A stretch of DNA of 64,000 nt from Terriglobia bacterium (GCA_028716525.1 JAQUPQ010000015.1:1237-65236), one strand, 5' to 3'; positions 20,843 to 40,351 are shown, counted from the first letter of the stretch. Program-made: numbers and translations. The notes: generated from the sequence alone by a model not told the origin.

Positions 20843-21267
20843 GGGCCTCGCCGGGCCTTCGGAAACTCCGAAGTTGCGCATTGAAATTCCTGGAGGAAAA
20901 TGGATATGCCTTATCTTATGCATTTTTAAAATGTTAAAGGATCCCCTCCGAAGGGGAACGCTCCTCCCCGTGCAACAATATCGCAACACGATATAGTGTA
21001 CTGTTTTGGCTGGACGATTGCAGTACAACAATGTGCCAAATATTACAAGCTTAAGAAACTGATGTTTGAACGGGCGCGCGCGCCTTCGGGGTCTTGCAAA
21101 CACAAGTTATCGAGGAATGTTTAACGCTCTTCGTTCTGAGGAAATCGGGTGGGTTTTTCCGAGGCGGCTTGTCACGCAAGCCGCGTTTTGCCCCCAACAA
21201 TCAATTCGGCATCATGATCAGATTTCAGGCAGCACATTCAAACCCTACTTCGACAGGAGGATATTCC

Positions 21268-24200
21268 ATGAAGGATTTGCATCGGCAGCGTTTTGTTCGC
21301 CTCTTAAGCGGCGTTGTATTAGCCGCTCTCTTCTTCCTACCCGCGCTGCAGAGGGCGCAGTCGACCGTATCGTCGGGGAGCATTCAAGGCACCATCAGTG
21401 ATCCCACGGGTGCTGTGGTCCCGGGCGCGGTCATTAAGATCACCAACGCCGCGACCTCGCAATCTATTGCAGTGAGCAGCAGCAGCACGGGTACCTACAA
21501 CTCCGGCGCTTTGTTGCCGGGCAGTTACACCGTGCGCGTCACAGCGAAGGGATTCAAAACTTCCGAAGCCACGGTGTCGGTTCAGGTCGGTGTCACCACA
21601 CCCGCCAATGTAACCCTGCAGCTGGGTGCGGAGAGCACGGTGGTTTCCGTGGAGGAATCCGCTAACGTGGTGAATACCGAACAAGCCTCGGTTCAGGGTG
21701 TGATGACCACTCAACAGATCGAAAATCTTCCTATTGGCGGGCGCAATTTCCTCGATCTGGCGCAGTTGCAACCGGGCGTACAAATTCAGGACGGATCGAA
21801 TTTCGATCCCACCAAGAACGGATTTCAATCCATTTCATTCGGCGGAAGATTCGGACGCACCGCCCGCATTGAAGTCGATGGCGTGGACATCAGCGACGAA
21901 ACCGTCGGCACCACCACGCAAAACATCCCCGCCAGCGGCATTCAAGAATTTCAGGTGGGGCAATCGACCCTGGATCTGTCGACCGAGCTGACCTCTTCCG
22001 GCGCCGTCAACGTGGTCACGCGTTCCGGCAGCAACCAGCTTCACGGGGAATTCTTTGACGTCTATCGGAACGACAACTTTGCGGCCCGCTTGTCCAATCA
22101 GCCGACCCCCTTCGACCGCGAGCAATTCGGCGCGCGCATTGGCGGACCCTTCATCAAAGACAAACTCTTTTTCTTTATGGACTACGAACGCACGATTCAG
22201 GACCAGGCCGCCCCGGCCGCACTGACCGCTCCCTTTTCCGGTTTCGACACGGGAATCAACTCGCCGTTTCATGAAAGCGAATTGTTGGGGCGCCTCGACT
22301 GGCAGATCAAGCCCGACATGCGGGCCTTCTATCGATGGACCTACGATCAGAACGACAGCTTCGTGCCCTTCATTCCGAACACTTTTTCGTTGTTCCGCAA
22401 CCGCGACAACACACCCGTTCAGGCGGCCGGACTGGATTTTAATACCGGCTCCTTCACGCACAGCATCCGGTTTGGATACACCCGTTTCCGCAATGCCATC
22501 GCGGACGCGAGTTTCAGTCTGCCCAATCCGGCGCCGGGCGTGGAACTGGCTATCGGCAACGACCCCTTCTGCCTGACGGCAGGGGCGGATCAATTCTGCT
22601 CCGGTCCCAATATTCTGGCCCCGCAACAAACCTTGCAGCACAACACGCAGATTAAGTACGACGGCAGCAAGGTGTTCCACTCCCACATTTTCCGTTACGG
22701 CGTCAGCCTGAACCACATTCTGGGCGGCGGCTTTGCAAACTTCTTCGGCTTGGCTCCGCCGGCCAGTTCCCAACTGACGGCGGCGACCGAAGCCTTTGCC
22801 GCCAGTGGCCCTCTGGCCGGAGGCGCCAGCAATCCGGCTAATTACCCTGCACAGTTTGTGCTGCTGGGAAACGGCCAAGGATTCTTCTCGGAAATTCCGC
22901 AATTTGGTCTTCCGGCGGGCGGGCAATATGATAATCGGTTTGCCTGGTATTTCGGCGACACTTGGAAGGTGCGGCCGAATCTGACCCTGACCTACGGAAT
23001 CCGCTATGACCGCGACACCGGCCGATCCGACAGCGATCTTCCGGCCGTAGCAGCGCTCAATCAGCTCGCGCCCGGCCTCGGAAATCCGGTCCATCAGCCC
23101 AACAGGAACTTCGCGCCTCAAGCGGGTATCGCTTGGGATCCTTGGAACAATGGAAAGACGGTCTTTCGCGCGGGAATCGGGCTCTACTATGAGAACGCGA
23201 TTTTCAACAACGTCTTGTTCGACCGTCCCGGGCGCCTCACCAAGGGATTGTTCAACGGGACGGCCTTAGCTTGCTTGGACAGTCAAGCTGTTCCTGTCAC
23301 ATTTCCGAACGGAACCACGGTGACCCCGGCGTTCTGCGGCCAGCCCATCGGATCAGTCGCCAGCCAGATCGCGGCGTTGCAATCCCAATTCCAAGCCGCC
23401 GTGGCGGCCGCGGGCCCGCAAAGCAACGGCAGCTTCTTTGGAAACGCTATGGCCGCCGGAAGCTTAGTCAACGGCGTGACTTTCTTCTCCCCCGATTATC
23501 GCTCTCCTTACTCCGTGCAAATGAACGTGGGAGTTGAACATCAATTGGGGAAAGGCATCGTCATCTCGGCCGACTATCTGAGAAACGTGGGATTGCACTA
23601 TCTGGTCGCCTATGATGTGAACCACACGGGCGACGCCCGGTTTTTGAATAAAGGAGCCGCTGTCGCAGCGATTACCGCCACCAACGCCGCGTTTGGATGC
23701 CCGCCGGGACAGGCCGGCATCACTTGCGCCATCAACAATGGAGCGACCATCGCCGACTACGCCGGAAACGGATTGACCTCCACGGCGGAATTTTCCGGAG
23801 GCTTTCCTGCACCTGGAAGTATCGCCTTCGGTGGAATCAATCCCAATTTCGGCGAAGTCTTCATGAACTTTCCGATCGGCCGTTCCGTCTACAACGCCCT
23901 GCAGATTTCCTTGCGGATGAACCGGGCGCATCCGCTGCCGTTCGTCCGTAACGCCAACCTTCAGGTGTCCTATTCCTTGTCACGATTCAACAGCATGGTA
24001 CGTGACCAGGATTTCGTGAACAATGCCATCGACAACAACAATGTGAACGGATTCTTCGGTCCGAATTCCCTGGATCGCACCAGCCAGTTGTCGTACGGAG
24101 GAACATTGGATCTTCCGGGCGCACTGCGGGCCAGTTTCATTTCCCACATCTACTCGCCGTTGTCCACCACCTTGACAGTTGCTCCGGTAGGAACGGGCGG

Positions 24201-24756
24201 CGAAATTTTCATGACGGATTTTACGGGCGACGGCACGATAGGTGATGTCATACCCGGAACCAACGTCGGCGCCTTCGGGCGAGGCATCGATTCGGGCAAC
24301 ATCAACAGCTTCATCAGTGCCTACAACAGCCAATTCGCCGGCAAGCTCACGCCCGCCGGCCAGGCCTTGGTCAGTTCCGGCCTATTCACTCAGGCGCAAT
24401 TGATTGCCTTGGGCGCCGTTGCTCCCACGGTGCCGTTGGCCCCGGCAAACCAGGTGAATCTGAGCTGGCTCACGACTTTCGATTTCCGCTTGGGTTGGGA
24501 ATTGAAGCCGCATCGGGTGATGGACCGCATTCCGGAAGGCGTGGTCGTGGAGCCCAGTGTTTCAATTTACAATCTGTTCAACTTTGCCAACTTTGACGGA
24601 CCCAGCAACCCCATGAGCGGGCAGTTGAACGGATCAGCCGGTTCGGTGAACGGAACTACACCCGGGGATCGCACCAACCGCATCGGATTGGGTTCGGGTG
24701 TGTTCGGCCTGGGCGCCCCGAGACAGTTTGAATTCGGGGTCAAAGTCACTTTCTAG
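21268..24756 (+). CDS. TonB-dependent receptor with N-terminal carboxypeptidase-regulatory-like domain (Acidobacteria-type)
   Basis: AGGAGG RBS then ATG at 21268, signal peptide, CarboxypepD_reg domain (GTISDPTGAVVPGAVIKITN...GSYTVRV), TonB plug (NxxxLPIGGRNFLDLAQLQPGV) and about 900-aa barrel ending in aromatic F. The upstream 58 codons of the ORF are not part of the protein. Confidence 0.85.
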   Translation: MKDLHRQRFVRLLSGVVLAALFFLPALQRAQSTVSSGSIQGTISDPTGAVVPGAVIKITNAATSQSIAVSSSSTGTYNSGALLPGSYTVRVTAKGFKTSEATVSVQVGVTTPANVTLQLGAESTVVSVEESANVVNTEQASVQGVMTTQQIENLPIGGRNFLDLAQLQPGVQIQDGSNFDPTKNGFQSISFGGRFGRTARIEVDGVDISDETVGTTTQNIPASGIQEFQVGQSTLDLSTELTSSGAVNVVTRSGSNQLHGEFFDVYRNDNFAARLSNQPTPFDREQFGARIGGPFIKDKLFFFMDYERTIQDQAAPAALTAPFSGFDTGINSPFHESELLGRLDWQIKPDMRAFYRWTYDQNDSFVPFIPNTFSLFRNRDNTPVQAAGLDFNTGSFTHSIRFGYTRFRNAIADASFSLPNPAPGVELAIGNDPFCLTAGADQFCSGPNILAPQQTLQHNTQIKYDGSKVFHSHIFRYGVSLNHILGGGFANFFGLAPPASSQLTAATEAFAASGPLAGGASNPANYPAQFVLLGNGQGFFSEIPQFGLPAGGQYDNRFAWYFGDTWKVRPNLTLTYGIRYDRDTGRSDSDLPAVAALNQLAPGLGNPVHQPNRNFAPQAGIAWDPWNNGKTVFRAGIGLYYENAIFNNVLFDRPGRLTKGLFNGTALACLDSQAVPVTFPNGTTVTPAFCGQPIGSVASQIAALQSQFQAAVAAAGPQSNGSFFGNAMAAGSLVNGVTFFSPDYRSPYSVQMNVGVEHQLGKGIVISADYLRNVGLHYLVAYDVNHTGDARFLNKGAAVAAITATNAAFGCPPGQAGITCAINNGATIADYAGNGLTSTAEFSGGFPAPGSIAFGGINPNFGEVFMNFPIGRSVYNALQISLRMNRAHPLPFVRNANLQVSYSLSRFNSMVRDQDFVNNAIDNNNVNGFFGPNSLDRTSQLSYGGTLDLPGALRASFISHIYSPLSTTLTVAPVGTGGEIFMTDFTGDGTIGDVIPGTNVGAFGRGIDSGNINSFISAYNSQFAGKLTPAGQALVSSGLFTQAQLIALGAVAPTVPLAPANQVNLSWLTTFDFRLGWELKPHRVMDRIPEGVVVEPSVSIYNLFNFANFDGPSNPMSGQLNGSAGSVNGTTPGDRTNRIGLGSGVFGLGAPRQFEFGVKVTF

Positions 24757-27912: not shown

Positions 27913-29607
27913 ATGAGACCTGTCCCGATGAAAAAATTTGAGGTTTTTTTTGACAGATTTCTTGCGGACTACTATGCCGCTCACCCCGATGTTGCAACCC
28001 ACTGTGGGTTTCACGATTTCGACTCGCAACTTCCCGATTTCAGTTGCGCCGGAATTTCTCGAGATGTGACACGCCTCCGGAGTGCCCTTTCTCAATTAAA
28101 ACGCCTGAGGCCTTCGCGGCAGCCTGGAAAACCTGACGCGGTTTCTCCGCAGTTCAACCTGGATTTGCAGCTAACCCAACAAACCTTGGAGGCGGCTTTA
28201 TTCAATCAGGAGATCCTACGCCCCTGGGAATGGAATCCGAATTTTTATAACGAACGCCTTTTTCAGGCTATTTTTCTGCTTATTCGACGGGATTTCGCTC
28301 CCCTGGAGCGGCGTGTCCAATCGCTGATTGAGCGGGAGCGTCAAATCCCGGATGTGCTCCGGGCTGCCGAGAAGCAGTTGAAAAATGTTCCCCAAATGGT
28401 GGCCCGCCTGGCCGTGGCGCACTGCGATGGAACCATCAACTTCTTGAAACACTCTTTACCACGCTCCGTGCACGCCCTGAAAAATCCCGAATGGAAGGCC
28501 CGCTTTGAAACAGCCAATGCCGGGGCTGTGGCGGCGTTTCAGCGGTACGGTGGTTTCATTCGTGAAAGGCTTCTTCCCAAGGGTCGAACCTCCTTTGCCT
28601 TGGGAGAAGATCTGTACTGCCGCAAACTCGCCGTGGATGAACTCGTGGAACTGCCTCTGGATTTTCTCCTGGCCCAGGCCGAGGGTTCGCTCGAAGAGCA
28701 TGAAGAAGAAATGAAGCGCGTCGGCGCTTTGATTCATCCGCGCCGGAAACCGGACCAGATTTTGGAAAACATGACCGCCGATCACCCGGGCGCCGGCCGG
28801 TTGATCGCATCGACAACCGGAGTGTTGAACCGGCTGCGGACGTTTCTTCGAACTCACAACATCGTTTCGTTGCCACCCTCGAAGCACAAGCCACACGACA
28901 ACTGTACGGTGGAAGAAAGCCCCGAATGCCTGCGGGAGTTGACTTTTGCTTCTCTCGACATTCCGGGCCCGTTTGAGCGCAAGGCGAATGACTATTATTA
29001 CTATGTCACGCTGCCGGATCCGCGTTGGACCCGGGCACAACAGGAACAACATCTGCGTTTTTTCTCCCGGCATCTCATTTTGACGACCTCCATCCACGAA
29101 GCCTACCCCGGTCACTTGGTGCATTTCCGCTGGGTGAACCGGCATCCTTCCAAAGCGCGCCGCATGTTCGGGGCCATCTCCCATGTGGAAGGCTGGGCTC
29201 ATTACTGCGAACAGATGATGATCGAAGAGGGATTCGGTAACAGCGATCCCCTTCTGCACCTGGCGCAACTTCACGAAGCCCAAATGCGGTTGTGCCGCTT
29301 CATCGCCGGCATCCGGATGCATACCCGGGGAATGACTTTCGAACAAGCCAAGAACCTCTTCATTCGAGGCGCCCACACCCAGCCCCTCAACGCCGAACGC
29401 GAGGCCAAGCGCGGCATCGTCGATCCTACTTACATCGTTTACACCCTCGGCAAAATGCAATTCCTGCGGTTGCGCGAAGATCTCCAAAAAAAGTGGGGAC
29501 CAAAATTCTCGCTCAAGAGGTTTCACAACAACTGCATTCAAAACGGATTTCCTCCGATCCCGCTGCTGCGCGAATTGTTGCTGAATGATCGGCGCGCAGT
29601 GGTGTGA
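27913..29607 (+). CDS. DUF885-family protein (putative metallo-hydrolase)
   Basis: About 560 aa with conserved HEAYPGHLVHF and YYYYVTLPDP-like segments typical of DUF885. Assignment from motif memory only. Confidence 0.5.
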   Translation: MRPVPMKKFEVFFDRFLADYYAAHPDVATHCGFHDFDSQLPDFSCAGISRDVTRLRSALSQLKRLRPSRQPGKPDAVSPQFNLDLQLTQQTLEAALFNQEILRPWEWNPNFYNERLFQAIFLLIRRDFAPLERRVQSLIERERQIPDVLRAAEKQLKNVPQMVARLAVAHCDGTINFLKHSLPRSVHALKNPEWKARFETANAGAVAAFQRYGGFIRERLLPKGRTSFALGEDLYCRKLAVDELVELPLDFLLAQAEGSLEEHEEEMKRVGALIHPRRKPDQILENMTADHPGAGRLIASTTGVLNRLRTFLRTHNIVSLPPSKHKPHDNCTVEESPECLRELTFASLDIPGPFERKANDYYYYVTLPDPRWTRAQQEQHLRFFSRHLILTTSIHEAYPGHLVHFRWVNRHPSKARRMFGAISHVEGWAHYCEQMMIEEGFGNSDPLLHLAQLHEAQMRLCRFIAGIRMHTRGMTFEQAKNLFIRGAHTQPLNAEREAKRGIVDPTYIVYTLGKMQFLRLREDLQKKWGPKFSLKRFHNNCIQNGFPPIPLLRELLLNDRRAVV

Positions 29608-30015
29608 CCAATCTTTGGTTTCCTCCCCGACCATAGATTCGGCCAGTCTCCGCGGACCCTCCGCGTCCTTTGCGCCTCGGCGGTGAAGGACCTAGTTTGT
29701 GACATGAACTGGTTAGCCCCCTCAACATCGCATCAGACAGATTGACAAACCCCAACCGAAAATGGCAGAATCCCTGCCGTATCCTAAAAGAAGAGACATT
29801 CTTAAATCATAAGCTTTCTTAAGATTTATGGCGTGAGGACTTACGCTAGCGCCGCGATCAGCACGCGGGAGGGGAGTTTTTCCTAATAACACCCTCTTGC
29901 CGATATTGGGGGGCCGTTCATCGCGTGATGCACAAGTGTCCAAAAGATTGCTGCAATGACATTCGAAGCCAAGTTGCAAATTTCGTGAATTTCACCAACT
30001 AACACAGGAGATAAC

Positions 30016-31461
30016 ATGAACAAGAAATGGTTCGTCTGCATTATCACGGGCGTTGTGCTCAGCCTGACCCTTTCGGCGACAGCTCCCGCCCAAAACTGCA
30101 AAATCGATGGATTCAACTCCGTTCGCGCGGGCAACGGATGGAGTTTTACCGACGGTACGTTCTTGGCGCCCCTTCGGGCCTTGTTGACCAGCACTACCTA
30201 CTTTGACGCCACCGCGGGCGCCGTTCCGTTCGGCATCACCATTCTGGCGGGACAAACCACGGTGACCGGTGCCTCGCTCACATTTCCAGCCAGCACCGTT
30301 TTCGCAACCGGATGGATTCCGACCTCTTCCTACACGGGCGCGGAAAAAACGGCCATCTTGGCCTATGTCATGGCTGGCGGCAATTTTCTGGGAACCTTCG
30401 ACGATACCGGGCATACCGCCTCCGACATTTTCGGGGTCACAACCATCGACTTTGGGGGGTCGGCTAATCTCACCATTAAGGATAGAAACCATTCCATCAT
30501 GGACGGTCCTTTTGGGGGTGTGGAGACCCTCATCAACGCCGGCGCTTATAGCCAATTTTCGGTGCTTCCCGGGAGCACGGCGCAGATCTTAGCCGCGAAC
30601 CAGACAGGCACAAATCCTTTTGAGGCGACTGTCCTTGTCTTTGACAATAATGCATTGGGCCCCGGATCAGGTCGGGTCGTGCTGATTAACGATACCAACT
30701 TCGGCTCTGTATCAGATGGTGGTGGCGACGACAACGTGATGATCCTCAACACCTTCGCTTTCCTTTGCGGCGCTCCCGGTACGCGGGGCGGCAACACTTT
30801 CTATTTTCCCCAGACAGCCCAGAATCAGGGATTCTCCACCCGCATGATTGCTACGAGCGCGTTCAATTCCAGCTCGGTTCCGGTAAGCATCAATTTTTTC
30901 AGTAACACTGGAGTTGCGACCGGAAATTGCGGCACAACAACTGTGGGCGGGTCATCCACGTTCGCCGGTTGCAATTTAGGTAATTCCCAAACCTCACCGA
31001 TTGTCACGGGTTGGGCTCGGACACGAAGCAGCGATCGGAACAACTATTTCGCAACGGAGAGTTTTCTCTTGTCCGATCCTTCGGGCAACCCTCAGAGTGT
31101 TGTGGGAGTTCCTGCTGCCTCGCCAGGCCACAACTTTACCCTTACAGGAATCATCGGGCCGAACAATGACTTGGGCGTGGCCATCCTGGCGCTGCCGACC
31201 AACAGCGCGGTCGCAAACATTACGGTCAAAGCGTTCGACGGGACCGGAACGCAAATCGGCGCGACCGGGAACTTGACCCTAAACCCCGGAAATCAGACGG
31301 CCGCGTTTGCCTCGCAGGCGCCGTTCAATGTTCCTCGAGCCACCTTCCAAGGGATCTCGGTCACCATTTCAAGCGATCAACAAATTGGCGTCTTAGCTTT
31401 GGGAGACGCCGAACCGGGCGCGCGGCTCTTCGGGACTCCAACTTTTGGCGGCCGAAAATAA
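30016..31461 (+). CDS. Secreted hypothetical protein, paralog A of a tandem pair (unknown function)
   Basis: Signal peptide (MNKKWFVCIITGVVLSLTLSATAPAQN). Clearly homologous to ORF 32043..33599 over its whole length (GFNxxRxxxGxSxxDG..., TGWxxTSSYTxxEKTxIL, NxALGPxSGRVVxxNDxxxx, YFPQxAxNxGFST, GWAxxRSDxxxxFxxExFxxSDxSGNP, GxLGPxxDxGxAxLALPT). No confident known domain. Confidence 0.7.
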   Translation: MNKKWFVCIITGVVLSLTLSATAPAQNCKIDGFNSVRAGNGWSFTDGTFLAPLRALLTSTTYFDATAGAVPFGITILAGQTTVTGASLTFPASTVFATGWIPTSSYTGAEKTAILAYVMAGGNFLGTFDDTGHTASDIFGVTTIDFGGSANLTIKDRNHSIMDGPFGGVETLINAGAYSQFSVLPGSTAQILAANQTGTNPFEATVLVFDNNALGPGSGRVVLINDTNFGSVSDGGGDDNVMILNTFAFLCGAPGTRGGNTFYFPQTAQNQGFSTRMIATSAFNSSSVPVSINFFSNTGVATGNCGTTTVGGSSTFAGCNLGNSQTSPIVTGWARTRSSDRNNYFATESFLLSDPSGNPQSVVGVPAASPGHNFTLTGIIGPNNDLGVAILALPTNSAVANITVKAFDGTGTQIGATGNLTLNPGNQTAAFASQAPFNVPRATFQGISVTISSDQQIGVLALGDAEPGARLFGTPTFGGRK

Positions 31462-31530
31462 AAAATCGGACGATCCAAATTAATCAGTGCCGTTCGCGAT
31501 GAGATGCGGTCGGCCAATGACAATAACCTC

Positions 31531-31567
31531 GGGCGCTGAGCAAATTGACTGTCAGCGCCCCTTTTTT
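31531..31567 (+). terminator. Rho-independent terminator after secreted paralog A
   Basis: Stem GGGCGCTGA/TCAGCGCCC with a 12-nt loop, followed by CTTTTTT. Confidence 0.7.
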
Positions 31568-32042
31568 GTCATGGATCCACCACGTTCCATCGCAATACGA
31601 TATTTGACTTCACTTCTTCTCTCGTGAGAGAATCTCTCGTCCATAAGCTGCAGTTGGTTCTTATCCCGAATTCAACAACTTTCATAATGATTGGGTAGCA
31701 GCCTTCGAGCGAGATGAACGGTTCATGCAACGGAGGCAGCCGGCGCTTGAAGAGGCATGTGGTGGGTCACCATCACTGCATTTTGAGGCGGAGCAACGCG
31801 TCTCTTGATGGGTTGCGGCAAGCGTGGGCTTGTGGGCCATGCTGGAGCAGGGTGCGTGGCCGTCAGTTTCATACACGTTCTTGATTGAGAATCATCCTGG
31901 TTGATGGGGGTTCTTATTTTGCGGTTCTCTTCATTCGGTTTCATGCATCGGTGTTTTCAGACGTCCAGGAAAGATCAAGCTCTTTCGAGGGCAGTTGGCT
32001 TGACCTGAAGGCAATTGGAGAATCCCAAACCCAGGAGGGAAC

Positions 32043-33599
32043 ATGAAAAGACAGGTTTTTCGCATTGCATGCCTTGGCATTTGTTGGTTTATTCTTATGA
32101 GTCTTGTGCTCCATGCCCAGACTCCTTGTGTTGTCAATGGATTCAACAATGCTCGTGTCGATGGGGGATACAGCATCATTGATGGGAGTGTTTATACTAA
32201 CCTCCGCAGCAAGCTTTCAAATCCGACCTTTTTCAGTTTTGCGTCAGGAGCCGCTCCCTTTCCCATCCAGTTGCAATCGGGCTTATCGACGGTGGGTTCC
32301 TCCTCGCTCCAGCCGGGAAATCCGACTGTGTTTGTAACCGGCTGGACCGCCACGTCAAGCTATACCCCGACCGAGAAAACGAATATTCTTAATGCGGTGA
32401 TGAACGGGGTCAGCATTATTGTCCAAGCAGACGATATCAACCACAGCATTGTTGATCTCTTTGGCCTGACCCAAGTGAATAGCGGCACGGGGGGAGGAAG
32501 CACCAATCAAGAGATCGCGGATTACGATAACCCCGTCATGAATGGCCCCTTCGGCCGAGTGGGTCTGTTGATACCGGCCGGGTTTGTGGGTCAGTTCTCG
32601 GGTGTTCCCGGGAATGCCACCCTTCTGGCGCGTAATATCGGTGGATCAACTGGCGGAAACACGGCAGCCGTAGTCATATTTCGAGAGAACGCCCTCGGGC
32701 CAACCTCTGGACGTGTGGTGATTTTGAACGACTCGGATTATGCCGGTAATTCTGAGGCTACCAGCCCCAACGGCAACGACGCGACCGTCATGTTCCTCAA
32801 TGCCTTGGCCTTTGCCTGCTTCATTCCCGATGCCCCTGGCGGTGCCAATTACAATACCTACTACTTCCCGCAAATCGCATTCAACGGCGGTTTCAGCACT
32901 GTCGAACAGTCTTCCAACGGCACTACTGGAAACACGATCGCCAATATTCAGTTCACCAATTTTGATGACAACGGAAGCTCCATTGGGTCATGCTCGTTTT
33001 CCACTGAACCGGGCAGTGGGACCAACAGCTGTGTTACCAACGGGACTTTATCCTCCCCGATTAAGACCGGCTGGGCGTGGATTCGCTCCGACGACCTGCA
33101 TGCGTTTTTTGCCCAGGAGAAGTTCATTCAGTCGGACGGATCCGGAAATCCCATTACTGCAGTGGGTGTTCCGCCGGCACAACTAGGACGGGCGTTCACA
33201 CTGGTCGGATTCTTGGGCCCCTTGGACGACATTGGAATTGCCTTTCTGGCCCTTCCTACAGATCCCGCAACCGCTCACATCCAGGTGATGGCATTCAACT
33301 CTGGTGGAAGCCAGGTGGGGAGCACCGGTAGCATCAATTTGCCACCGGGTACGCACACGGCCGCATTCATTGATGGAATCGTGAGTGTCAATCGGAACAC
33401 CCTCACCCCCACAAATCTGTCGGTGGTCATCACGAGCGACCAACAACTGGCCATCACCGGTTTGGCTTCCAATGATCCGGGCTTCAAACTGAGTGGAATC
33501 CCCACGTTGCCGGGCCGGCTAATTACGCTGTTTGCCGTAACTAAAAATGCAACGGGAAGAGCTTCCAGGTCAGTAGAGTCTGGCCGGTCGAGCCATTAG
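32043..33599 (+). CDS. Secreted hypothetical protein, paralog B of the tandem pair (unknown function)
   Basis: Signal peptide (MKRQVFRIACLGICWFILMSLVLHAQT). Collinear similarity to 30016..31461, plus an extra about 40-aa C-terminal tail. Confidence 0.7.
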   Translation: MKRQVFRIACLGICWFILMSLVLHAQTPCVVNGFNNARVDGGYSIIDGSVYTNLRSKLSNPTFFSFASGAAPFPIQLQSGLSTVGSSSLQPGNPTVFVTGWTATSSYTPTEKTNILNAVMNGVSIIVQADDINHSIVDLFGLTQVNSGTGGGSTNQEIADYDNPVMNGPFGRVGLLIPAGFVGQFSGVPGNATLLARNIGGSTGGNTAAVVIFRENALGPTSGRVVILNDSDYAGNSEATSPNGNDATVMFLNALAFACFIPDAPGGANYNTYYFPQIAFNGGFSTVEQSSNGTTGNTIANIQFTNFDDNGSSIGSCSFSTEPGSGTNSCVTNGTLSSPIKTGWAWIRSDDLHAFFAQEKFIQSDGSGNPITAVGVPPAQLGRAFTLVGFLGPLDDIGIAFLALPTDPATAHIQVMAFNSGGSQVGSTGSINLPPGTHTAAFIDGIVSVNRNTLTPTNLSVVITSDQQLAITGLASNDPGFKLSGIPTLPGRLITLFAVTKNATGRASRSVESGRSSH

Positions 33600-33605
33600 A
33601 AAACC

Positions 33606-33699
33606 AGGGACAGACACCGGCGGCTCAACACATTGGAAAGAGTAAAGCCTGAGGTGTCTGTCCCTATCTTCGGGATGCTTCAAGAAAGGAAGCATCCCG
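33606..33699 (+). terminator. Two consecutive strong hairpins downstream of paralog B (terminator-like, no T-run)
   Basis: 13-bp perfect stem AGGGACAGACACC...GGTGTCTGTCCCT with a 34-nt loop, immediately followed by an 11-bp stem CGGGATGCTTC/GAAGCATCCCG. Confidence 0.45.
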
Positions 33700-33812
33700 G
33701 CTACCAGATTACTTTGCCCATTCCCCCAAGATTCAGTAGAATGCCCACTTTACAAATCGACGGTTGACACCGCCGGCGCGGCGCCACCGAACGGAGCACT
33801 CTCTCAAAACTC

Positions 33813-34622
33813 ATGCGGGCGGATTTGCATATTCATACCTACCACTCCGACGGATCATTTCCGACGGAAACCCTGATTGATCTGGCCGAAAAAAACCGGC
33901 TCGATTATCTGGCCATCACCGACCATGACTGCTTCGCTTCCTTCGAAACCGCCACTCGCTTAATCGGCGAGCGGGGATTGGGCCTGAAGCTGATTCCCGC
34001 AGCCGAATTTACGGCCATGCTGAACGGCGAAGAAATCCACATTCACGGCTACTTCAAAGAGGCGCCGTCGCCGCGGTTGCTGCAATATGCCCAAATGGTG
34101 CAGGCGGAGCGCCGGGCTCGCATCGAACGCGCCCTTGAGATCCTCGGAACCATCGGCGTGAAAGCCACCATGGATGAAATTCCGGCGCATCCGGATTGCC
34201 TCAGCCTGACGCAGTTGCATCTGGCCTTTTTGCTGATCAGCAAGAATTACGCCCGTTCGATGGGGGAAGCGCGCCGTGTATACCTGAACGAGCGTGTGCT
34301 TCCGAAGTTTACAATGCGGGCCGAAGATGTCATCCAAACCATTTCGAGCGAGGGCGGCTTGGCCGTGTGGGCCCATCCGGATGAAGAAAATTTCGACAAC
34401 CGATTGAAGACTCTGATGGGATTCGGTTTGGCCGGCCTGGAAGTCTTCAACCTGCGACGCCAGGAGAAAGCTTCCAAACAATTTCTGAAAGCTTCAAAGA
34501 AAAACGGGCTGGTGGCCTCTCTGGGCAGCGATTGGCACGGCCACAGTCATACCTATCATTATGATCACCAGCTGGACGGCACAAAAATTTTGCCGGAGTT
34601 TCTGGGGAAACTGTATCATTAA
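33813..34622 (+). CDS. PHP-domain metal-dependent phosphoesterase
   Basis: MRADLHIHTYHSDGS...LAITDHD motif set of the PHP (polymerase/histidinol phosphatase) family. Confidence 0.8.
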   Translation: MRADLHIHTYHSDGSFPTETLIDLAEKNRLDYLAITDHDCFASFETATRLIGERGLGLKLIPAAEFTAMLNGEEIHIHGYFKEAPSPRLLQYAQMVQAERRARIERALEILGTIGVKATMDEIPAHPDCLSLTQLHLAFLLISKNYARSMGEARRVYLNERVLPKFTMRAEDVIQTISSEGGLAVWAHPDEENFDNRLKTLMGFGLAGLEVFNLRRQEKASKQFLKASKKNGLVASLGSDWHGHSHTYHYDHQLDGTKILPEFLGKLYH

Positions 34623-36755: not shown

Positions 36756-38390
36756 ATGCCCAAGCGGTTGGTTCAGAAGCTCATCCTCGCCTTAACCATC
36801 CTGGTGGTGGTTGTGGAAGGCGTGGCGGGTCTGATCAATATGCGCACCCAGGAGCGGCAACTGCTGAACGCCATGATTCTGGGCGCCGATCAGCTCTCCA
36901 AGGGCATCGCCAGCGCCACTTGGCACGCCATGTTGGCGGACCGTCGCGAAGCCGCCTACGAAGTGATGCAGACCATCGCCTTGAAGCAGGGCATCAGCCG
37001 CATCCGAATGTTCAATCACGAAGGTCGCGTCATGTTCTCGACCGCCCCGACCGAACAGGGCCAGGTGGACAAGACCACGGAAGTGTGCTCGGCCTGCCAT
37101 ATTCCGGGGCAGCCCAAGCTGCATGTCGATATTCCCTCCCGGTCGCGCATTCTGGTCGATCCCAGCGGACGGCGCCGGCTGGCCATGTTCACACCCATTT
37201 ACAACGAACCTTCCTGCAGTCAGGCAGTGTGTCATGCCCATCCGGAGTCGAGGCGCGTTTTAGGCGTGTTGGATGTGGCCTTGAACCTCGACACCGTGGA
37301 CCGCGAAGTGGCCGGTATCAAGTGGCGCGTATTGCTGGTCACCGGTGTTCAGATTCTCCTGATGGGATCGTTCATTGTGTTGTTCGCGCGGCGATTTGTC
37401 GAAGCCCCCATCCGCAAATTAATTGAGGGCACACGCGCGGTGAGCGACATGAAGCTGGACCAGCCCATCACCATCGATTCCAGTGAAGAACTGGGCGAGC
37501 TGGCCCGTTCCTTCAACGTAATGCGGGATCGGTTGCGACAGGCCATCGAGGAAATCAATCAATTCACACAAAGCCTCGAAACCAAAGTCGAGGAACGCAC
37601 CGAACAACTGAAAACGGCCCATGAACGCTTGATGAAAAGTGATCGGCTGGCGTCGCTCGGACAGCTGGCCGCCAGCGTCGCCCACGAAATCAACAACCCC
37701 ATCTCGGGAGTCTTGAATCTGGCGATGCTGATGCAGCGGATCCTCAAAGACGACGGTGTCCCACCCGACCGGCTCAACGATTTTCGCAAGTATCTCTCGC
37801 AGGTCATCACCGAAACTTCCCGGGTCGGACGAATCGTGTCGGACCTGCTGGCGTTCTCCCGCCGTTCCAAACCTCAACACACGAACGCCGATCTAAACAA
37901 GATCGTAAAGACCACATTATCGCTGGTGGATCACAAACTGAAGCTGAACAATGTGGCGGTCTCAGCCCATTTCGAGGAGCAGTTGCCCCCGGTGTCCTGT
38001 GACGCTTCGCAAATCCAGCAGGTCGTCATGAACCTTATCTTGAATGGCGCCGAGGCTACCCAGCCCCGCGGCTCGGGCCGAATCGCGGTGACCACGCAGT
38101 CCGATCCCAAGAACCACGTGGTGGCCCTCACCGTCAGCGATAATGGCGAGGGAATTCGCCCGGAGCATCTTTCGAAGGTCTTCGACCCATTTTTCACCAC
38201 CAAGGAGGAAGGCAAAGGAGTCGGCCTGGGTTTGGCCGTGGTTTATGGAATCGTGGAATCCCATGGCGGCGACATCGAAGTGAAGAGCACCTTGGGAGAA
38301 GGGACCTCGTTTCGTGTCACTCTGCCGCTGAGCCCGGCAGAAAAAGCGCCGGTGGCGCCGGCGGAGGCGGGAGCCGCCTCGAGGCGGTGA
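36756..38390 (+). CDS. Sensor histidine kinase with periplasmic domain carrying CxxCH / Cx4CH putative heme-c binding motifs
   Basis: TM1 (aa 8-28), about 160-aa periplasmic loop containing CSACH (aa 111-115) and CSQAVCH (aa 154-160), TM2, HAMP-like linker, H-box [13 protein letters not shown], HATPase_c N/G1/G2 boxes ([26 protein letters not shown]). Confidence 0.85.
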
Positions 38391-38978
38391 GTGAGCGTGA
38401 ACCGGATTTATCTGGCGTCGATGGGACACTTGGACGCAGACATTCTTGAAGATCTGGAAGAAGCCTTGACGATGCACTTTGGCTTTGAAACACGCCGACA
38501 CCCTCCGATCGCCGAACCGGAGCATGCCTATGATCCGCAACGACGCCAGTTTAGCGCCGTGGCTTTTCTGCAGCAGGCCGTGGAACATTGTCCCCCCGAG
38601 GCAGTCAAGATGTTGACGATCACAGAACGGGATTTGTTCATCCCGATGCTGAGTTTTGTTTATGGACAAGCTCAACTCGGCGGGAAAGTCGCGGTCGTAT
38701 CACTGGCCCAATTGCGGCAGGAATTTTACGGCTTTCCCTCGGACGGCGATCTCTTGCGTGAACGCGCCTTGAAAGAAATGTCGCATGAGATGGGCCACAC
38801 CTTCGGATTGATTCATTGTCCGGAACGGCTTTGTATCATGTCGTTGTCAACCAATATCCGGCACATTGATTTAAAGGGAAGCGAATTTTGCGGCGGTTGC
38901 CGCGCCGTGCTGCGGGAAAACACTGCGGTCACTCGAGCCGGCGGTTCTGAAGTTTTAGCGTGGGAGGAACGATTATGA
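38391..38978 (+). CDS. Archaemetzincin-family zinc metallopeptidase (peptidase M54-like)
   Basis: Complete archaemetzincin signature HExxHxxGx3Cx4CxMx16CxxC: SHEMGHTFGLIHCPERLCIMS...SEFCGGC. Start/stop fused with the flanking kinase and regulator genes. Confidence 0.8.
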   Translation: MSVNRIYLASMGHLDADILEDLEEALTMHFGFETRRHPPIAEPEHAYDPQRRQFSAVAFLQQAVEHCPPEAVKMLTITERDLFIPMLSFVYGQAQLGGKVAVVSLAQLRQEFYGFPSDGDLLRERALKEMSHEMGHTFGLIHCPERLCIMSLSTNIRHIDLKGSEFCGGCRAVLRENTAVTRAGGSEVLAWEERL

Positions 38979-40351
38979 AATCAGCATGGGAAATCCTGGT
39001 GGTGGACGATGAGGAGATTATGCGGGAATCTTTGGCCGCCTGGTTGCGCGAAGACGGCTACGAAGTCGAGACCGCGTGTTCCGGCCGCGAAGCGCTCGAC
39101 AAGGCCCGCGCCAAGGAATACGCCATCTATTTTGTCGATTTAAAAATGCCGGGCGGCATGGATGGCATTGAAACCATGATGGAAATCCGCCGGCTGCACG
39201 CCGAGGCCTCCATCATTATTATTACGGCCTTTGCCACCGTCGACACCGCCATCACCGCCATGAAGGAAGGCGCCCAGGAATATATCGTCAAGCCGTGCAA
39301 TCCGGCGGAAATCTCGATGCTGGTCAACCGCATCATCAAGGTGAAAAACCTGCAGCGCGAGAATGCCATTTTGCGCAAGAAATTGTCGCGCCAATACAGT
39401 TTTCACGACATCATCAGCAAAAACCCGAAGATGCTGGAAATCTTCGACCTCATCAAGGAAATTGCCAGTTTGCGCAGCACGGTGCTGATTCATGGAGGCA
39501 GCGGAACCGGCAAGGAGCTCATCGCCCGCGCCATTCACAATTCAGGAAATCGCGCCGACAAGCCGTTCATTGGCGTTTCCTGCGCTGCTCTGGCCGAGAC
39601 CTTGCTGGAATCGGAGCTCTTTGGTCACGAGAAGGGATCGTTCACAGGCGCGGATCAACGCAAGAAGGGGAAGTTTGAACTGGCGGATGGCGGCACGATC
39701 TTCCTGGACGAAATCGGCGACATCTCGCCTAAATTGCAGTTGGACCTGCTGCGGGTGCTGCAGGAACGCTCCTTTTATCGGGTGGGCGGGTCTGAAGAAG
39801 TCCAGGTCGATGTGCGGGTCATCGCGGCTTCCCATGTGGATTTGCGGCAGGCCGTCCAGGAGGGAAAATTCCGCGACGACCTCTATTATCGCCTGAATGT
39901 CATCACTATTTATATCCCGCCTCTCAGCGAACGCCGTGAAGACATTCCGCTGTTGGCGCGTCACTTCATCGAACGCCTCTCCCACGAACTGGCTAAAGAG
40001 GTCGTGGATCTTTCGGAAAATGCTTTGAAATTATTGCTGGAATACGACTGGCCCGGAAACGTTCGGGAGCTTGAAAACGCCATCGAGCGCGCCATCGTCA
40101 CCTGTCGCAGCAAAATTCTCACGGAAGAGGATTTCAATTTTCTGCAGCGCAGCATCGAAGACAAGAAAGGCTGGACCGTCCCAACCCACCTTTCCCTTGA
40201 CGAGCTGGAACGCCAGGTCATTACCGCCACGCTTCAACGCACCCAAGGCAACATCAAAGAAGCGGCGGCGGTGCTCGACATTGACCGCTCCACCTTGTAC
40301 GAGCGCATCAAGAGATACGGAATCCAACGCGAACGGCTGGTCGAAAAATAA
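38975..40351 (+). CDS. Sigma-54-dependent Fis-family response regulator (NtrC class)
   Basis: REC domain (VVDDEE...D...K), AAA+ sigma54-activation domain with Walker A GGSGTGKE, the GAFTGA-equivalent motif (EKGSFTGA) and ESELFGHE, C-terminal Fis-type HTH. Confidence 0.9.
   Translation: MKSAWEILVVDDEEIMRESLAAWLREDGYEVETACSGREALDKARAKEYAIYFVDLKMPGGMDGIETMMEIRRLHAEASIIIITAFATVDTAITAMKEGAQEYIVKPCNPAEISMLVNRIIKVKNLQRENAILRKKLSRQYSFHDIISKNPKMLEIFDLIKEIASLRSTVLIHGGSGTGKELIARAIHNSGNRADKPFIGVSCAALAETLLESELFGHEKGSFTGADQRKKGKFELADGGTIFLDEIGDISPKLQLDLLRVLQERSFYRVGGSEEVQVDVRVIAASHVDLRQAVQEGKFRDDLYYRLNVITIYIPPLSERREDIPLLARHFIERLSHELAKEVVDLSENALKLLLEYDWPGNVRELENAIERAIVTCRSKILTEEDFNFLQRSIEDKKGWTVPTHLSLDELERQVITATLQRTQGNIKEAAAVLDIDRSTLYERIKRYGIQRERLVEK

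What the first reader, a model, noticed from the sequence alone, without database searches (positions are those of the whole stretch)
30016..33599. Tandem pair of divergent paralogous secreted proteins of unknown function, each with its own terminator
Two about 480-520-aa proteins with signal peptides share collinear motifs along their entire length. Examples: NCKIDGFNSVRAGNGWSFTDG vs PCVVNGFNNARVDGGYSIIDG; TGWIPTSSYTGAEKTAIL vs TGWTATSSYTPTEKTNIL; NTFYFPQTAQNQGFST vs NTYYFPQIAFNGGFST; GWARTRSSDRNNYFATESFLLSDPSGNP vs GWAWIRSDDLHAFFAQEKFIQSDGSGNP. I cannot assign any known domain. They are separated by a 580-bp ORF-free spacer with a clean terminator. The N-terminal half has a pattern reminiscent of a class-I glutamine-amidotransferase-like/ThuA-like fold (ILAYVMAGGNFLG). 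The C-terminal half looks like a beta-sandwich. This is a candidate novel secreted family, possibly carbohydrate-binding or cell-surface.
Basis: seen in the sequence. Interest (0 to 1): 0.6.

Follow-up and report, generated by a model that had tools for sequence, protein, structure and literature searches.

The report
Paired secreted two-module binding proteins
Two neighbouring genes of an acidobacterium encode related secreted proteins that each join a GldG/IFT52-like domain to a doubled beta-sandwich like those predicted to bind sugars: a rare family made of known but uncharacterised parts, and of modest interest.

Summary
ORFs 30016-31461 (481 aa) and 32043-33599 (518 aa) are intact, collinear paralogs (43% identity, E 3e-110). 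Each has a Sec-type signal peptide, its own promoter-like site and its own downstream hairpins.

Neither protein hits Pfam, NCBIfam, PADLOC or PHROGs directly. The full-length family has only 11 clusters among 5.8 billion proteins. An exhaustive profile search shows two separable modules that are each widespread.
- Residues ~26-256 are a divergent DUF4350 / GldG / IFT52 "GIFT" domain. It has the class-I glutamine-amidotransferase-like fold but no catalytic triad.
- Residues ~257-481 are an internal duplication of a beta-sandwich whose fold matches ASRT/TM1070 and which is related to Pfam DUF5719.

Both modules recur, often in tandem, in large extracellular proteins with adhesin, lectin or protease domains. 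Two disulfide pairs, one invariant and one co-varying, support export.

The most likely function is a soluble periplasmic or extracellular binding protein, probably for glycans. That is inferred, not shown. The two paralog types are also neighbours in a second metagenome, and they share a promoter motif found nowhere else in the window.

The claim of novelty holds for the family, not for the superfamilies.

The parts
29742..29771 (+). Promoter-like site of gene 1: TTGACA, 18 nt, CAGAAT, with TG before the second hexamer. It lies about 245 nt upstream of the ATG.
   Evidence: Scan hit with 10 of 12 matches. The same element aligns upstream of family genes in L001 and twice in L007. The motif TTGAC-N16-TGNNAGAAT occurs only twice in the 64 kb window, against 0.02 expected.
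30006..30010 (+). Ribosome-binding site AGGAG of gene 1
   Evidence: Read from the sequence.
30016..31461 (+). Gene 1, 481 aa (NCBI PHX83_07915, annotated as hypothetical protein)
30016..30090 (+). Signal peptide of gene 1, aa 1-25, with predicted cleavage at APA|QNC
   Evidence: Sequence pattern and hydrophobicity. The family alignment shows the same layout in 9 of the 11 members; in P0005 and P0008 the called start is probably wrong, too far downstream and too far upstream respectively.
30091..30783 (+). N-module of gene 1, aa 26-256: divergent DUF4350 / GldG / IFT52-GIFT domain with the class-I GATase-like fold. Conserved residues are R54, E110, D129, D130, G164-P-F-G167, D226 and N245. Cys28 and Cys251 are invariant.
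30784..31119 (+). C-module repeat 1 of gene 1, aa 257-368: eight-stranded beta-sandwich beginning YFPQxA. It holds the co-varying pair Cys305/Cys319.
   Evidence: AF2 model with pLDDT 91, hhalign of the two halves, cysteine pattern.
31120..31458 (+). C-module repeat 2 of gene 1, aa 369-481: a second beta-sandwich. A weak sequence match to ASRT aligns to this half. Foldseek matches ASRT and TM1070 over about 100 residues, one sandwich, with TM 0.61-0.75, but its output does not say which half.
31531..31568 (+). Intrinsic terminator of gene 1: hairpin followed by a U-tract
31604..31633 (+). Promoter-like site of gene 2: TTGACT, 18 nt, GAGAAT, with TG. It lies about 410 nt upstream of the ATG and just after the gene 1 terminator.
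32033..32038 (+). Ribosome-binding site AGGAGG of gene 2
   Evidence: Read from the sequence.
32043..33599 (+). Gene 2, 518 aa (NCBI PHX83_07920, annotated as hypothetical protein). Signal peptide aa 1-25 (32043-32117), N-module aa 26-264 (32118-32834), C-module aa 265-492 (32835-33518), then a 26-aa tail not found in gene 1 (33519-33596).
33606..33698 (+). Two strong hairpins after gene 2 (33606-33665 and 33672-33698), neither with a U-tract
   Evidence: z -6.9.

Best explanation
Each gene is its own transcription unit. Each encodes a Sec-exported, disulfide-stabilised soluble protein built from two non-catalytic extracellular modules.

The N-terminal module belongs to the DUF4350 / GldG / IFT52 'GIFT' branch of the class-I glutamine-amidotransferase-like fold. 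It has lost, or never had, the Cys-His-Glu triad. An acidic cluster (D129, D130, D226) sits where that fold normally carries its active or ligand site.

The C-terminal module is a tandem pair of homologous eight-stranded beta-sandwiches of the ASRT/TM1070 type. It is related to the actinobacterial family DUF5719.

The protein most likely acts in the periplasm or outside the cell as a binding protein. The probable ligand is a carbohydrate polymer or cell-envelope glycan, held by the sandwich pair. The GIFT-like module would add a second binding or oligomerisation surface.

Shown: gene integrity, paralogy, domain boundaries, module homologies, the fold of the C-module, and the extracellular company both modules keep.
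Inferred: export (from sequence features), ligand class, and oligomeric state.

Confidence is about 0.8 for the domain and architecture statement and about 0.35-0.4 for glycan binding. The single figure given is a blend of the two.
For: Paralogy: 43% identity, E 3e-110.

Rarity and modules:
- The full-length family has 11 clusters.
- An exhaustive profile search gives 907 hits at E<=1e-3. These split into hits on the N-module only and hits on the C-module only.

N-module:
- Relatives that match the window family profile at E 1e-27 to 1e-44 carry Pfam DUF4350 above its cut-off on the same stretch. Examples are P0014 (54 bits), P0016 (59.7) and P0035 (33.5).
- Of 24 aligned N-modules, 17 hit DUF4350, 10 hit ABC_transp_aux (the GldG type), 3 hit ThuA, 2 hit Glyco_hydro_42M and 1 hits IFT52_GIFT.
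- The best PDB sequence match of the N profile is IFT52, E 0.0097.
- Foldseek with the full-length model finds the IFT52 GIFT domain 5fmr (TM 0.61), STM3548, ThuA-like 1t0b, GATase1-like 3rht and the central domain of GH42 enzymes.

C-module:
- The AF2 model has pLDDT 91.4 and pTM 0.89, with 16 strands in two sandwiches.
- The two halves are homologous: hhalign probability 96%, E 2e-9.
- Foldseek matches ASRT 2ii7/2ii8 (TM 0.64-0.75, probability 1.0) and TM1070 1nc7 (TM 0.61) over about 100 residues.
- Of 32 aligned C-modules, 12 hit DUF5719, best E 1.5e-7. P0050 scores 34.9 bits, above the cut-off.

Extracellular, non-catalytic character:
- Both modules occur in tandem arrays: up to five N-modules, and pairs of C-modules.
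- They sit beside Calx-beta, cadherin, SpaA, PKD, legume lectin, M10 peptidase, PPC, DUF11, TIG, GDSL, NHL/YvrE propellers, YD repeats, CARDB and BACON.

Export: signal peptides. Cys28/Cys251 are invariant. Cys305/Cys319 are present together in 8 members and absent together in 3. The mature proteins have exactly four cysteines.

Literature:
- DUF4350 is an extracellular domain homologous to GldG and the beta-galactosidase trimerisation domain (PMC5898192).
- GIFT domains are proposed to bind sugars (PMC7226087, citing Beatson and Ponting 2004).
- ASRT-like domains are predicted to bind sugars and occur as dyads or tetrads in secreted proteins (PMC2739507).

Selection: dN/dS is 0.28-0.49 among close relatives.
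Against: - The window proteins hit no Pfam, NCBIfam or PDB entry directly. All assignments go through intermediate sequences or through predicted folds.
- The sequence link to ASRT itself is not significant (E about 1).
- The N-module model is only moderately confident (pLDDT about 50-88).
- No member of either superfamily branch has an experimentally shown ligand. The sugar-binding idea is itself a published prediction.
- Gene neighbourhoods are not conserved and contain no carbohydrate genes.
- The Asn that marks strand 2 of ASRT-like domains is replaced by Ala in repeat 2 of both window proteins.
Confidence: 0.5

Rival explanations
1. The N-module is an active hydrolase. The class-I GATase-like fold also houses PfpI/DJ-1 peptidases and LD-carboxypeptidases. 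Here the conserved D129-D130-x-x-H132 after the central strand, together with D226, would do the chemistry. The sandwich pair would target the enzyme to a polymeric substrate such as peptidoglycan or exopolysaccharide.
For: - D129 and D226 are conserved across the whole N-module superfamily alignment (D226 in all 24 sequences, D129 in at least 90%), and D130 is invariant in the 11-member family. They follow two predicted beta-strands (E123-128 and E221-225 of the model), the positions where this fold usually carries catalytic or ligand residues by my reading of the fold.
- ASRT-like domains are fused to secreted N-acetylmuramoyl-L-alanine amidases in Chloroflexi (PMC2739507).
- Some relatives carry true catalytic domains: M10 peptidase and GDSL lipase.
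Against: - There is no Cys nucleophile.
- H132 is not invariant even within the 11-member family; P0002 and P0003 have Asp there.
- N-modules occur three to five times in tandem in single proteins. That is usual for binding modules and unusual for enzymes.
- The nearest solved folds (IFT52 GIFT, STM3548, the GH42 central domain) are non-catalytic.
Confidence: 0.15
2. It is a protein-protein scaffold or accessory subunit rather than a lectin. Like GldG with its ABC transporter, IFT52 in IFT-B or OST48/Wbp1 in oligosaccharyltransferase, the GIFT-like module would dock onto an envelope machine. Alternatively the protein could be a structural matrix or S-layer-associated component.
For: - The known roles of GIFT-domain proteins are as subunits of complexes (PMC5898192, PMC7226087).
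- The two paralog types are neighbours in two organisms, which fits a hetero-oligomer.
- The solved ASRT-like proteins form tetramers (PMC2739507).
Against: - No transporter or machine genes are conserved next to family members.
- The proteins have no membrane anchor, lipobox or recognisable sorting signal.
- The company the modules keep is adhesin- and lectin-like rather than transporter-like.
Confidence: 0.2
3. One or both ORFs are decaying duplicates or chance ORFs with no function.
For: The family is very small and lineage-restricted. dN/dS of 0.3-0.5 is fairly high.
Against: - Both ORFs are uninterrupted. Both keep all 90 family-invariant residues, strong ribosome-binding sites and promoter-like sites.
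- Each paralog type has its own ortholog elsewhere. P0002-P0005 are 59-61% identical to gene 1, and P0010 is 66% identical to gene 2.
- dN/dS is below 1 in every pair.
Confidence: 0.01

Closest known systems
DUF4350 (Pfam PF14258) and the GldG-type ABC_transp_aux (PF09822) / IFT52 GIFT domains, within the class-I glutamine-amidotransferase-like (flavodoxin-like) clan
   Same: The alpha/beta fold matches. So does the extracellular location behind a signal peptide, as described for archaeal DUF4350 proteins (PMC5898192). The strand-helix-strand motif xxVxxGGxLxxxxDD and the HPIxxGPFG-type loop are shared. There is no catalytic triad.
   Different: - The window proteins fall below every Pfam threshold.
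- They have about 75 extra N-terminal residues not covered by the DUF4350 profile, including the disulfide to the last helix.
- They are soluble, with no C-terminal membrane helix and no ABC-transporter partner.
- They are fused to a sandwich pair.
ASRT / TM1070 'ASRAH' superfamily (Pfam PF07100; PDB 2II7, 1NC7; De Souza, Iyer and Aravind 2009, PMC2739507)
   Same: Each domain is an eight-stranded sandwich of about 100-110 residues. The fold match has TM 0.61-0.75. The domains occur as a dyad in a secreted protein. The wider C-module family has an Asn at the end of an early strand in both repeats (consensus TxxxxxN and TGxAxxNP).
   Different: - Sequence similarity to ASRT is not significant (E about 1).
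- The SHExxCxxN ligand signature is absent.
- There is no conserved Trp at the first strand; YFPQ stands there instead.
- In the window proteins the Asn of repeat 2 is Ala.
- ASRT itself is intracellular and a single domain.
DUF5719 (Pfam PF18986), actinobacterial secreted or lipoprotein family
   Same: It is the only Pfam model that recognises relatives of the C-module: 12 of 32, best E 1.5e-7, with one above the cut-off. It covers a two-sandwich unit in an exported protein.
   Different: - The window proteins do not hit it.
- They have no lipobox.
- There is no WhiB / glycosyltransferase neighbourhood.
- The lineage is Acidobacteriota.
- Equating DUF5719 with the actinobacterial dyad family of PMC2739507 is my inference and was not tested.
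ThuA-like proteins and the GH42 beta-galactosidase central (trimerisation) domain
   Same: They share the fold (Foldseek 1t0b, 5xb7, 4ucf, 8ibt). Weak Pfam hits appear in relatives.
   Different: The sequence relation is more distant than to DUF4350/GldG. There is no glycoside hydrolase catalytic domain and no trehalose-utilisation gene context.

Membership tests
DUF4350 / GldG / GIFT superfamily (class-I GATase-like clan) | Direct match to the Pfam model above its gathering score | tested here: not met
   Neither window protein hits any Pfam family, even at E<=1.
DUF4350 / GldG / GIFT superfamily (class-I GATase-like clan) | Homology through intermediate sequences over the same stretch | tested here: met
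   The window family profile hits P0014, P0016, P0018, P0026 and P0035 at E 1e-27 to 1e-44. In those proteins DUF4350 covers the same region, with 3 above the cut-off. Of 24 aligned N-modules, 17 hit DUF4350 and 10 hit ABC_transp_aux. The PDB profile search puts IFT52 first, E 0.0097.
DUF4350 / GldG / GIFT superfamily (class-I GATase-like clan) | Flavodoxin-like / GATase1-like three-layer alpha/beta fold | tested here: met
   Foldseek finds IFT52 GIFT 5fmr (TM 0.61), STM3548 2gk3, ThuA-like 1t0b and GATase1-like 3rht, all with probability 1.0. Caveat: pLDDT in this region of the model is only about 50-88.
Class-I glutamine amidotransferase (the enzyme) | Cys-His-Glu catalytic triad with Cys at the nucleophile elbow | tested here: not met
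   The only conserved cysteines of the N-module are Cys28 and Cys251, at its two ends. By my reading of the model's strands, Asp129 stands at the elbow position. No invariant His exists.
ASRT-like (ASRAH) beta-sandwich superfamily | Eight-stranded sandwich fold like 2II7 / 1NC7 | tested here: met
   The model is high-confidence (pLDDT 91.4). Foldseek gives TM 0.64-0.75 to ASRT chains and 0.61 to TM1070, probability 1.0. Strand order was not checked independently.
ASRT-like (ASRAH) beta-sandwich superfamily | Significant sequence or profile similarity to ASRT / PF07100 | tested here: inconclusive
   The profiles align nearly end to end with 2ii7, but at E 0.93-1.1. One of 32 members hits PF07100, at E 0.037.
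ASRT-like (ASRAH) beta-sandwich superfamily | Conserved Asn ending strand 2 and conserved Trp at strand 1 (PMC2739507) | tested here: inconclusive
   Asn is nearly invariant in repeat 1 and common in repeat 2 of the wider family. In both window proteins the Asn of repeat 2 is Ala. The Trp is absent; YFPQ stands in its place.
ASRT-like (ASRAH) beta-sandwich superfamily | Secreted versions occur as dyads or tetrads | tested here: met
   The two halves of the C-module are homologous (hhalign probability 96%, E 2e-9). Many relatives carry two C-modules, which makes four sandwiches.
DUF5719 (PF18986) | Match to the Pfam model | tested here: not met
   The window C-modules give no hit. Relatives do: 12 of 32 at E<=1, best 1.5e-7, and P0050 scores 34.9 bits against a cut-off of 26.2. 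The relation is at superfamily level only.
Bacterial lipoprotein / sorted surface protein | Lipobox L-[AS]-[GA]-C, or a C-terminal sorting signal (PEP-CTERM, LPXTG, type IX) | tested here: not met
   The conserved Cys28 follows Q-N rather than a lipobox. The proteins end at PxFxGR[KRN], or with a short polar tail, and have no hydrophobic segment there.

The most novel reading that the evidence does not exclude
The two divergent paralogs form an obligate pair. They are neighbours in two different organisms, in swapped order. They share a promoter motif found nowhere else in the 64 kb window, and both have long untranslated leaders. Together they might assemble into a heteromer that brings four ASRT-like sandwiches together. 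Solo ASRT-like proteins reach the same number as homotetramers, and secreted amidase-linked ones as tetrads. The result would be a lineage-specific secreted lectin complex of Acidobacteriota, acting in exopolysaccharide or biofilm-matrix organisation or in capture of plant-polymer fragments.
Probability: 0.12. Interest if true: 0.5.

Novelty: new variant of a known kind. Interest (0 to 1): 0.27.

Why it matters
If right, the pair gives a small, soluble and tractable representative of two widespread extracellular modules. Current domain libraries model both poorly, and nobody has characterised either. One is a divergent DUF4350/GIFT branch. The other is a YFPQxA-type double sandwich that Pfam recognises only marginally, as DUF5719.

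A ligand for either module would carry over to hundreds of large surface proteins in Acidobacteriota, Actinomycetota and other phyla. It would also test the long-standing predictions that GIFT and ASRT-like domains bind sugars.

In itself the locus is not surprising. It adds an uncharacterised secreted protein family to a phylum that is rich in them.

Tried and rejected
Searches that found nothing:
- Direct scans of both proteins against Pfam, NCBIfam, PADLOC and PHROGs. This rules out a known defence or phage family.
- PDB sequence searches with the full-length, C-module and single-repeat profiles gave only marginal hits: AbpX, YceI and ASRT at E 0.005-1.
- Rfam on 29400-34000 gave nothing.
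- Folding the two leaders gave z -0.25 and -1.4. I dropped the riboswitch or structured-leader idea.

Context and distribution:
- The neighbourhoods of P0004 and P0008 share nothing with the window. No function can be read from context.
- The genome-contig scan with the family alignment found no relative among the representative genomes of the 185,579 species.
- Alignments A2 and A3 were too diverse for the search for related loci.
- A degenerate DNA pattern for HPIA[ND]GPFG gave 4 loci. Only the two Solirubrobacteraceae loci encode the N-module.
- The third word-indexed protein search, with a combined alignment, returned only 25 proteins and no taxonomy.

Other:
- dN/dS between the two window paralogs cannot be computed, because dS is saturated.
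- Composition shows no sign of recent horizontal transfer: GC is 54-55%, like the flanks.
- The top Foldseek rows by E-value for the C-module (CBM22 tandem, SIDT1, IBDV VP2) have TM 0.2-0.3 and rmsd above 15 Å. I rejected them as two-domain misalignments.


Full report
**Observation.** The window comes from an Acidobacteriia (Terriglobia) metagenome-assembled genome. The two ORFs are NCBI PHX83_07915 and PHX83_07920, both annotated as hypothetical proteins.
- ORF 30016-31461 (481 aa) and ORF 32043-33599 (518 aa) lie on the + strand.
- BLASTP of one against the other gives 43% identity over 493 columns, E 3e-110. The match is collinear from the signal peptide to the last conserved PGR.
- Both genes have a strong ribosome-binding site: AGGAG at 30006-30010 and AGGAGG at 32033-32038.
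- The spacer is 581 bp and holds only short chance ORFs.
- Gene 1 ends in a textbook intrinsic terminator (31531-31568, -18.5 kcal/mol plus a U-tract).
- Gene 2 is followed by two very stable hairpins (z -6.9) with no U-tract. That part of the title is only half right.
- GC content matches the flanks.

**Export.** I infer export from three features.
- Both N-termini have a basic start, a hydrophobic core and a small-x-small site before Gln26.
- The mature proteins contain exactly four cysteines.
- Cys28 and Cys251 are invariant in all 11 family members. Cys305 and Cys319 are present together in eight members and absent together in three. That is the pattern expected for two disulfides in an oxidising compartment.
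There is no lipobox, membrane helix or recognisable C-terminal sorting signal.

**Family size.** Word-indexed searches of 5.8 billion proteins found only 11 full-length clusters, all unannotated and nearly all from a few metagenome projects. A scan of one genome per species (185,579 species) found none. Direct scans against Pfam, NCBIfam, PADLOC and PHROGs were empty.

**Two mobile modules.** An exhaustive HMMER search with the family profile against 1.84 billion representatives gave 907 hits at E<=1e-3 and 211 at E<=1e-10.
- The hits match either profile positions about 25-255 or about 256-480. They rarely match both.
- Separate module profiles found 68 proteins with the N-module and 102 with the C-module among the listed proteins. 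Both modules often occur in tandem: up to five N-modules, and typically two C-modules.
- Apart from the 11-member family, the top 150 hits hold three proteins with the same N+C order. P0013 and P0015 have it in full. P0056 is a 366-aa protein that begins inside the N-module.

**N-module (aa 26-256).**
- Relatives recognised at E 1e-27 to 1e-44 carry Pfam DUF4350 on the same stretch. Three are above the gathering score.
- Of 24 aligned N-modules, 17 hit DUF4350, 10 hit ABC_transp_aux (the GldG type), 3 hit ThuA, 2 hit Glyco_hydro_42M and 1 hits IFT52_GIFT.
- The N profile's best PDB sequence match is IFT52, at E 0.0097.
- Independently, Foldseek with the full-length model puts the IFT52 GIFT domain (5fmr, TM 0.61) at ranks 2-3, behind a GH42 enzyme. 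STM3548, ThuA-like 1t0b, GATase1-like 3rht and further GH42 enzymes follow, the GH42 hits presumably through their GATase1-like central domain.
- Makarova et al. describe DUF4350 as an extracellular domain homologous to GldG and to the beta-galactosidase trimerisation domain (PMC5898192).
- The amidotransferase triad is absent. By my reading of the model's strands, Asp129 stands at the elbow position.
- Conserved polar residues are R54, E110, D129, D130, D226 and N245, plus the GPFG loop.

**C-module (aa 257-481).**
- With a 32-sequence alignment of C-modules, AlphaFold2 gave pLDDT 91.4 and pTM 0.89. The model has sixteen strands in two sandwiches.
- Profile-profile comparison of the two halves gives 96% probability, E 2e-9. 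The module is an internal duplication.
- In Foldseek, the only matches with good superposition are ASRT (2ii7/2ii8, TM 0.64-0.75, probability 1.0) and its Thermotoga homolog TM1070 (1nc7, TM 0.61). Each covers about 100 residues.
- Sequence profiles align with ASRT nearly end to end, but not significantly (E about 1).
- Twelve of 32 C-modules hit Pfam DUF5719, best E 1.5e-7. One relative is above the cut-off.
- De Souza, Iyer and Aravind defined the ASRT-like superfamily, predicted that it binds sugars, and noted that secreted versions come as dyads or tetrads, including an actinobacterial surface-lipoprotein family (PMC2739507).
- That this actinobacterial family is DUF5719 is my inference.

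**What the modules travel with.** The partner domains are Calx-beta, cadherin, SpaA-type, PKD, legume lectin, M10 peptidase, PPC, DUF11, TIG, GDSL lipase, beta-helix, NHL/YvrE propellers, YD repeats, CARDB and BACON. All are extracellular. Repetition in arrays argues for binding modules rather than enzymes. The N-module was confirmed in two Solirubrobacteraceae genomes.

**Selection and duplication history.**
- Neither copy is a pseudogene. All 90 invariant family positions are kept in both.
- Each paralog type has its own orthologs: 59-61% identity for gene 1 and 66% for gene 2. The duplication is therefore old.
- dS between the window pair is saturated. Among close relatives dN/dS is 0.28-0.49, meaning purifying but fairly relaxed selection.
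- Tandem pairing recurs. L007 carries two 82%-identical copies 567 bp apart.
- L008 carries the gene-2 type followed, about 400 bp later, by the start of a gene-1 type. That is both paralog types in swapped order.

**Regulation.**
- The motif TTGAC-N16-TGNNAGAAT occurs exactly twice in 64 kb, against 0.02 expected. The sites are 29742-29771 and 31604-31633, one upstream of each gene.
- The same promoter-like element aligns upstream of relatives.
- The implied leaders, about 245 and 410 nt, match no Rfam family and are not unusually structured.

**Context.** The neighbours in the window are GDPD, DUF885, RmuC, a TonB-type outer-membrane protein, a PHP-domain protein, a hexapeptide transferase and a sigma-54 two-component pair. 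The neighbours of relatives are different. Context says nothing about function.

**Conclusion.** These are real, exported, paralogous two-module proteins: a GIFT/DUF4350-like domain followed by an ASRT-like double sandwich.
- The most likely role is a soluble glycan-binding protein of the envelope or the exterior. Confidence is about 0.8 for the architecture and about 0.35-0.4 for the ligand class.
- The rivals are a hydrolase that uses the acidic cluster (0.15) and a protein-docking or structural subunit (0.2).
- The family is new at family level and is a new combination of modules, but both modules belong to known, uncharacterised superfamilies. I rate it a new variant of a known kind, of modest interest.

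Noticed in passing
window 29742-29771 and 31604-31633: The promoter-like motif TTGAC-N16-TGNNAGAAT occurs only twice in 64 kb, against 0.02 expected, once upstream of each paralog. A near-identical element (TTGACA, 17-18 nt, GAGAAT or GAAAAT, preceded by TG) aligns upstream of family genes in L001 and twice in L007. This suggests a conserved promoter for the family and co-regulation of the two genes.
   Followed up: partly
window 29772-30015 and 31634-32042: If the promoter-like sites are real, the leaders are about 245 and 410 nt long. They match no Rfam family and fold no better than shuffles (z -0.25 and -1.4). Intergenic regions of 400-850 bp precede family genes in the other loci as well.
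   Followed up: partly
L008 1774-4031 (JGI 3300067036): The ortholog of gene 2 (P0010) is followed about 400 bp later by the start of a gene-1-type protein (MSKKRFVGF...QNCKLDGFSNARADSGWSFTDG...), which runs off the contig. Both paralog types are therefore neighbours in a second organism, in the opposite order to the window.
   Followed up: partly
L007 690-4097 (JGI 3300036886): There is a second, younger tandem pair: P0005 and P0003, 82% identical, dN/dS 0.38, 567 bp apart. The called start of P0005 is probably too far downstream. An in-frame ATG upstream gives MKRTWLTRFVMCVVL.
   Followed up: partly
window 33606-33698: Two very stable hairpins (13-bp and 10-bp stems, z -6.9) follow gene 2 with no U-tract. 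They could be a non-canonical terminator, an RNA-stability element or a protein-binding site.
   Followed up: no
L005/L006 10001-11575 (P0008): The called start of P0008 (VQALPGDF...) gives a 44-aa N-terminal extension that no other family member has. The signal-peptide-like segment begins at the internal Met (MRYAFLKWVF...), so the annotated start is probably wrong.
   Followed up: no
proteins P0027 and P0031 (N-module relatives): Both end with Thr/Pro-rich linkers and ...PRFTG or ...PAFTG. That resembles a truncated sortase (LPXTG/LAXTG-type) signal and suggests cell-wall-anchored forms of the N-module in Gram-positive lineages. P0022 carries thrombospondin-type-3-like Asp-rich repeats after the module.
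   Followed up: no
window 21094-24756: A 1220-aa outer-membrane protein has a CarboxypepD_reg domain followed by an OMP beta-barrel (PF25183). This is a TonB-dependent-type architecture that I recall as common in Acidobacteriota. It lies 5 kb upstream and showed no evident link to the pair.
   Followed up: no
window 36756-40351: A HAMP/HisKA histidine kinase and a sigma-54-dependent response regulator (receiver, AAA+ and Fis-type HTH domains) lie 3 kb downstream. I did not search for a sigma-54 (-24/-12) promoter element upstream of the two paralogs; the only promoter-like sites the scan found there are of the sigma-70 type.
   Followed up: no
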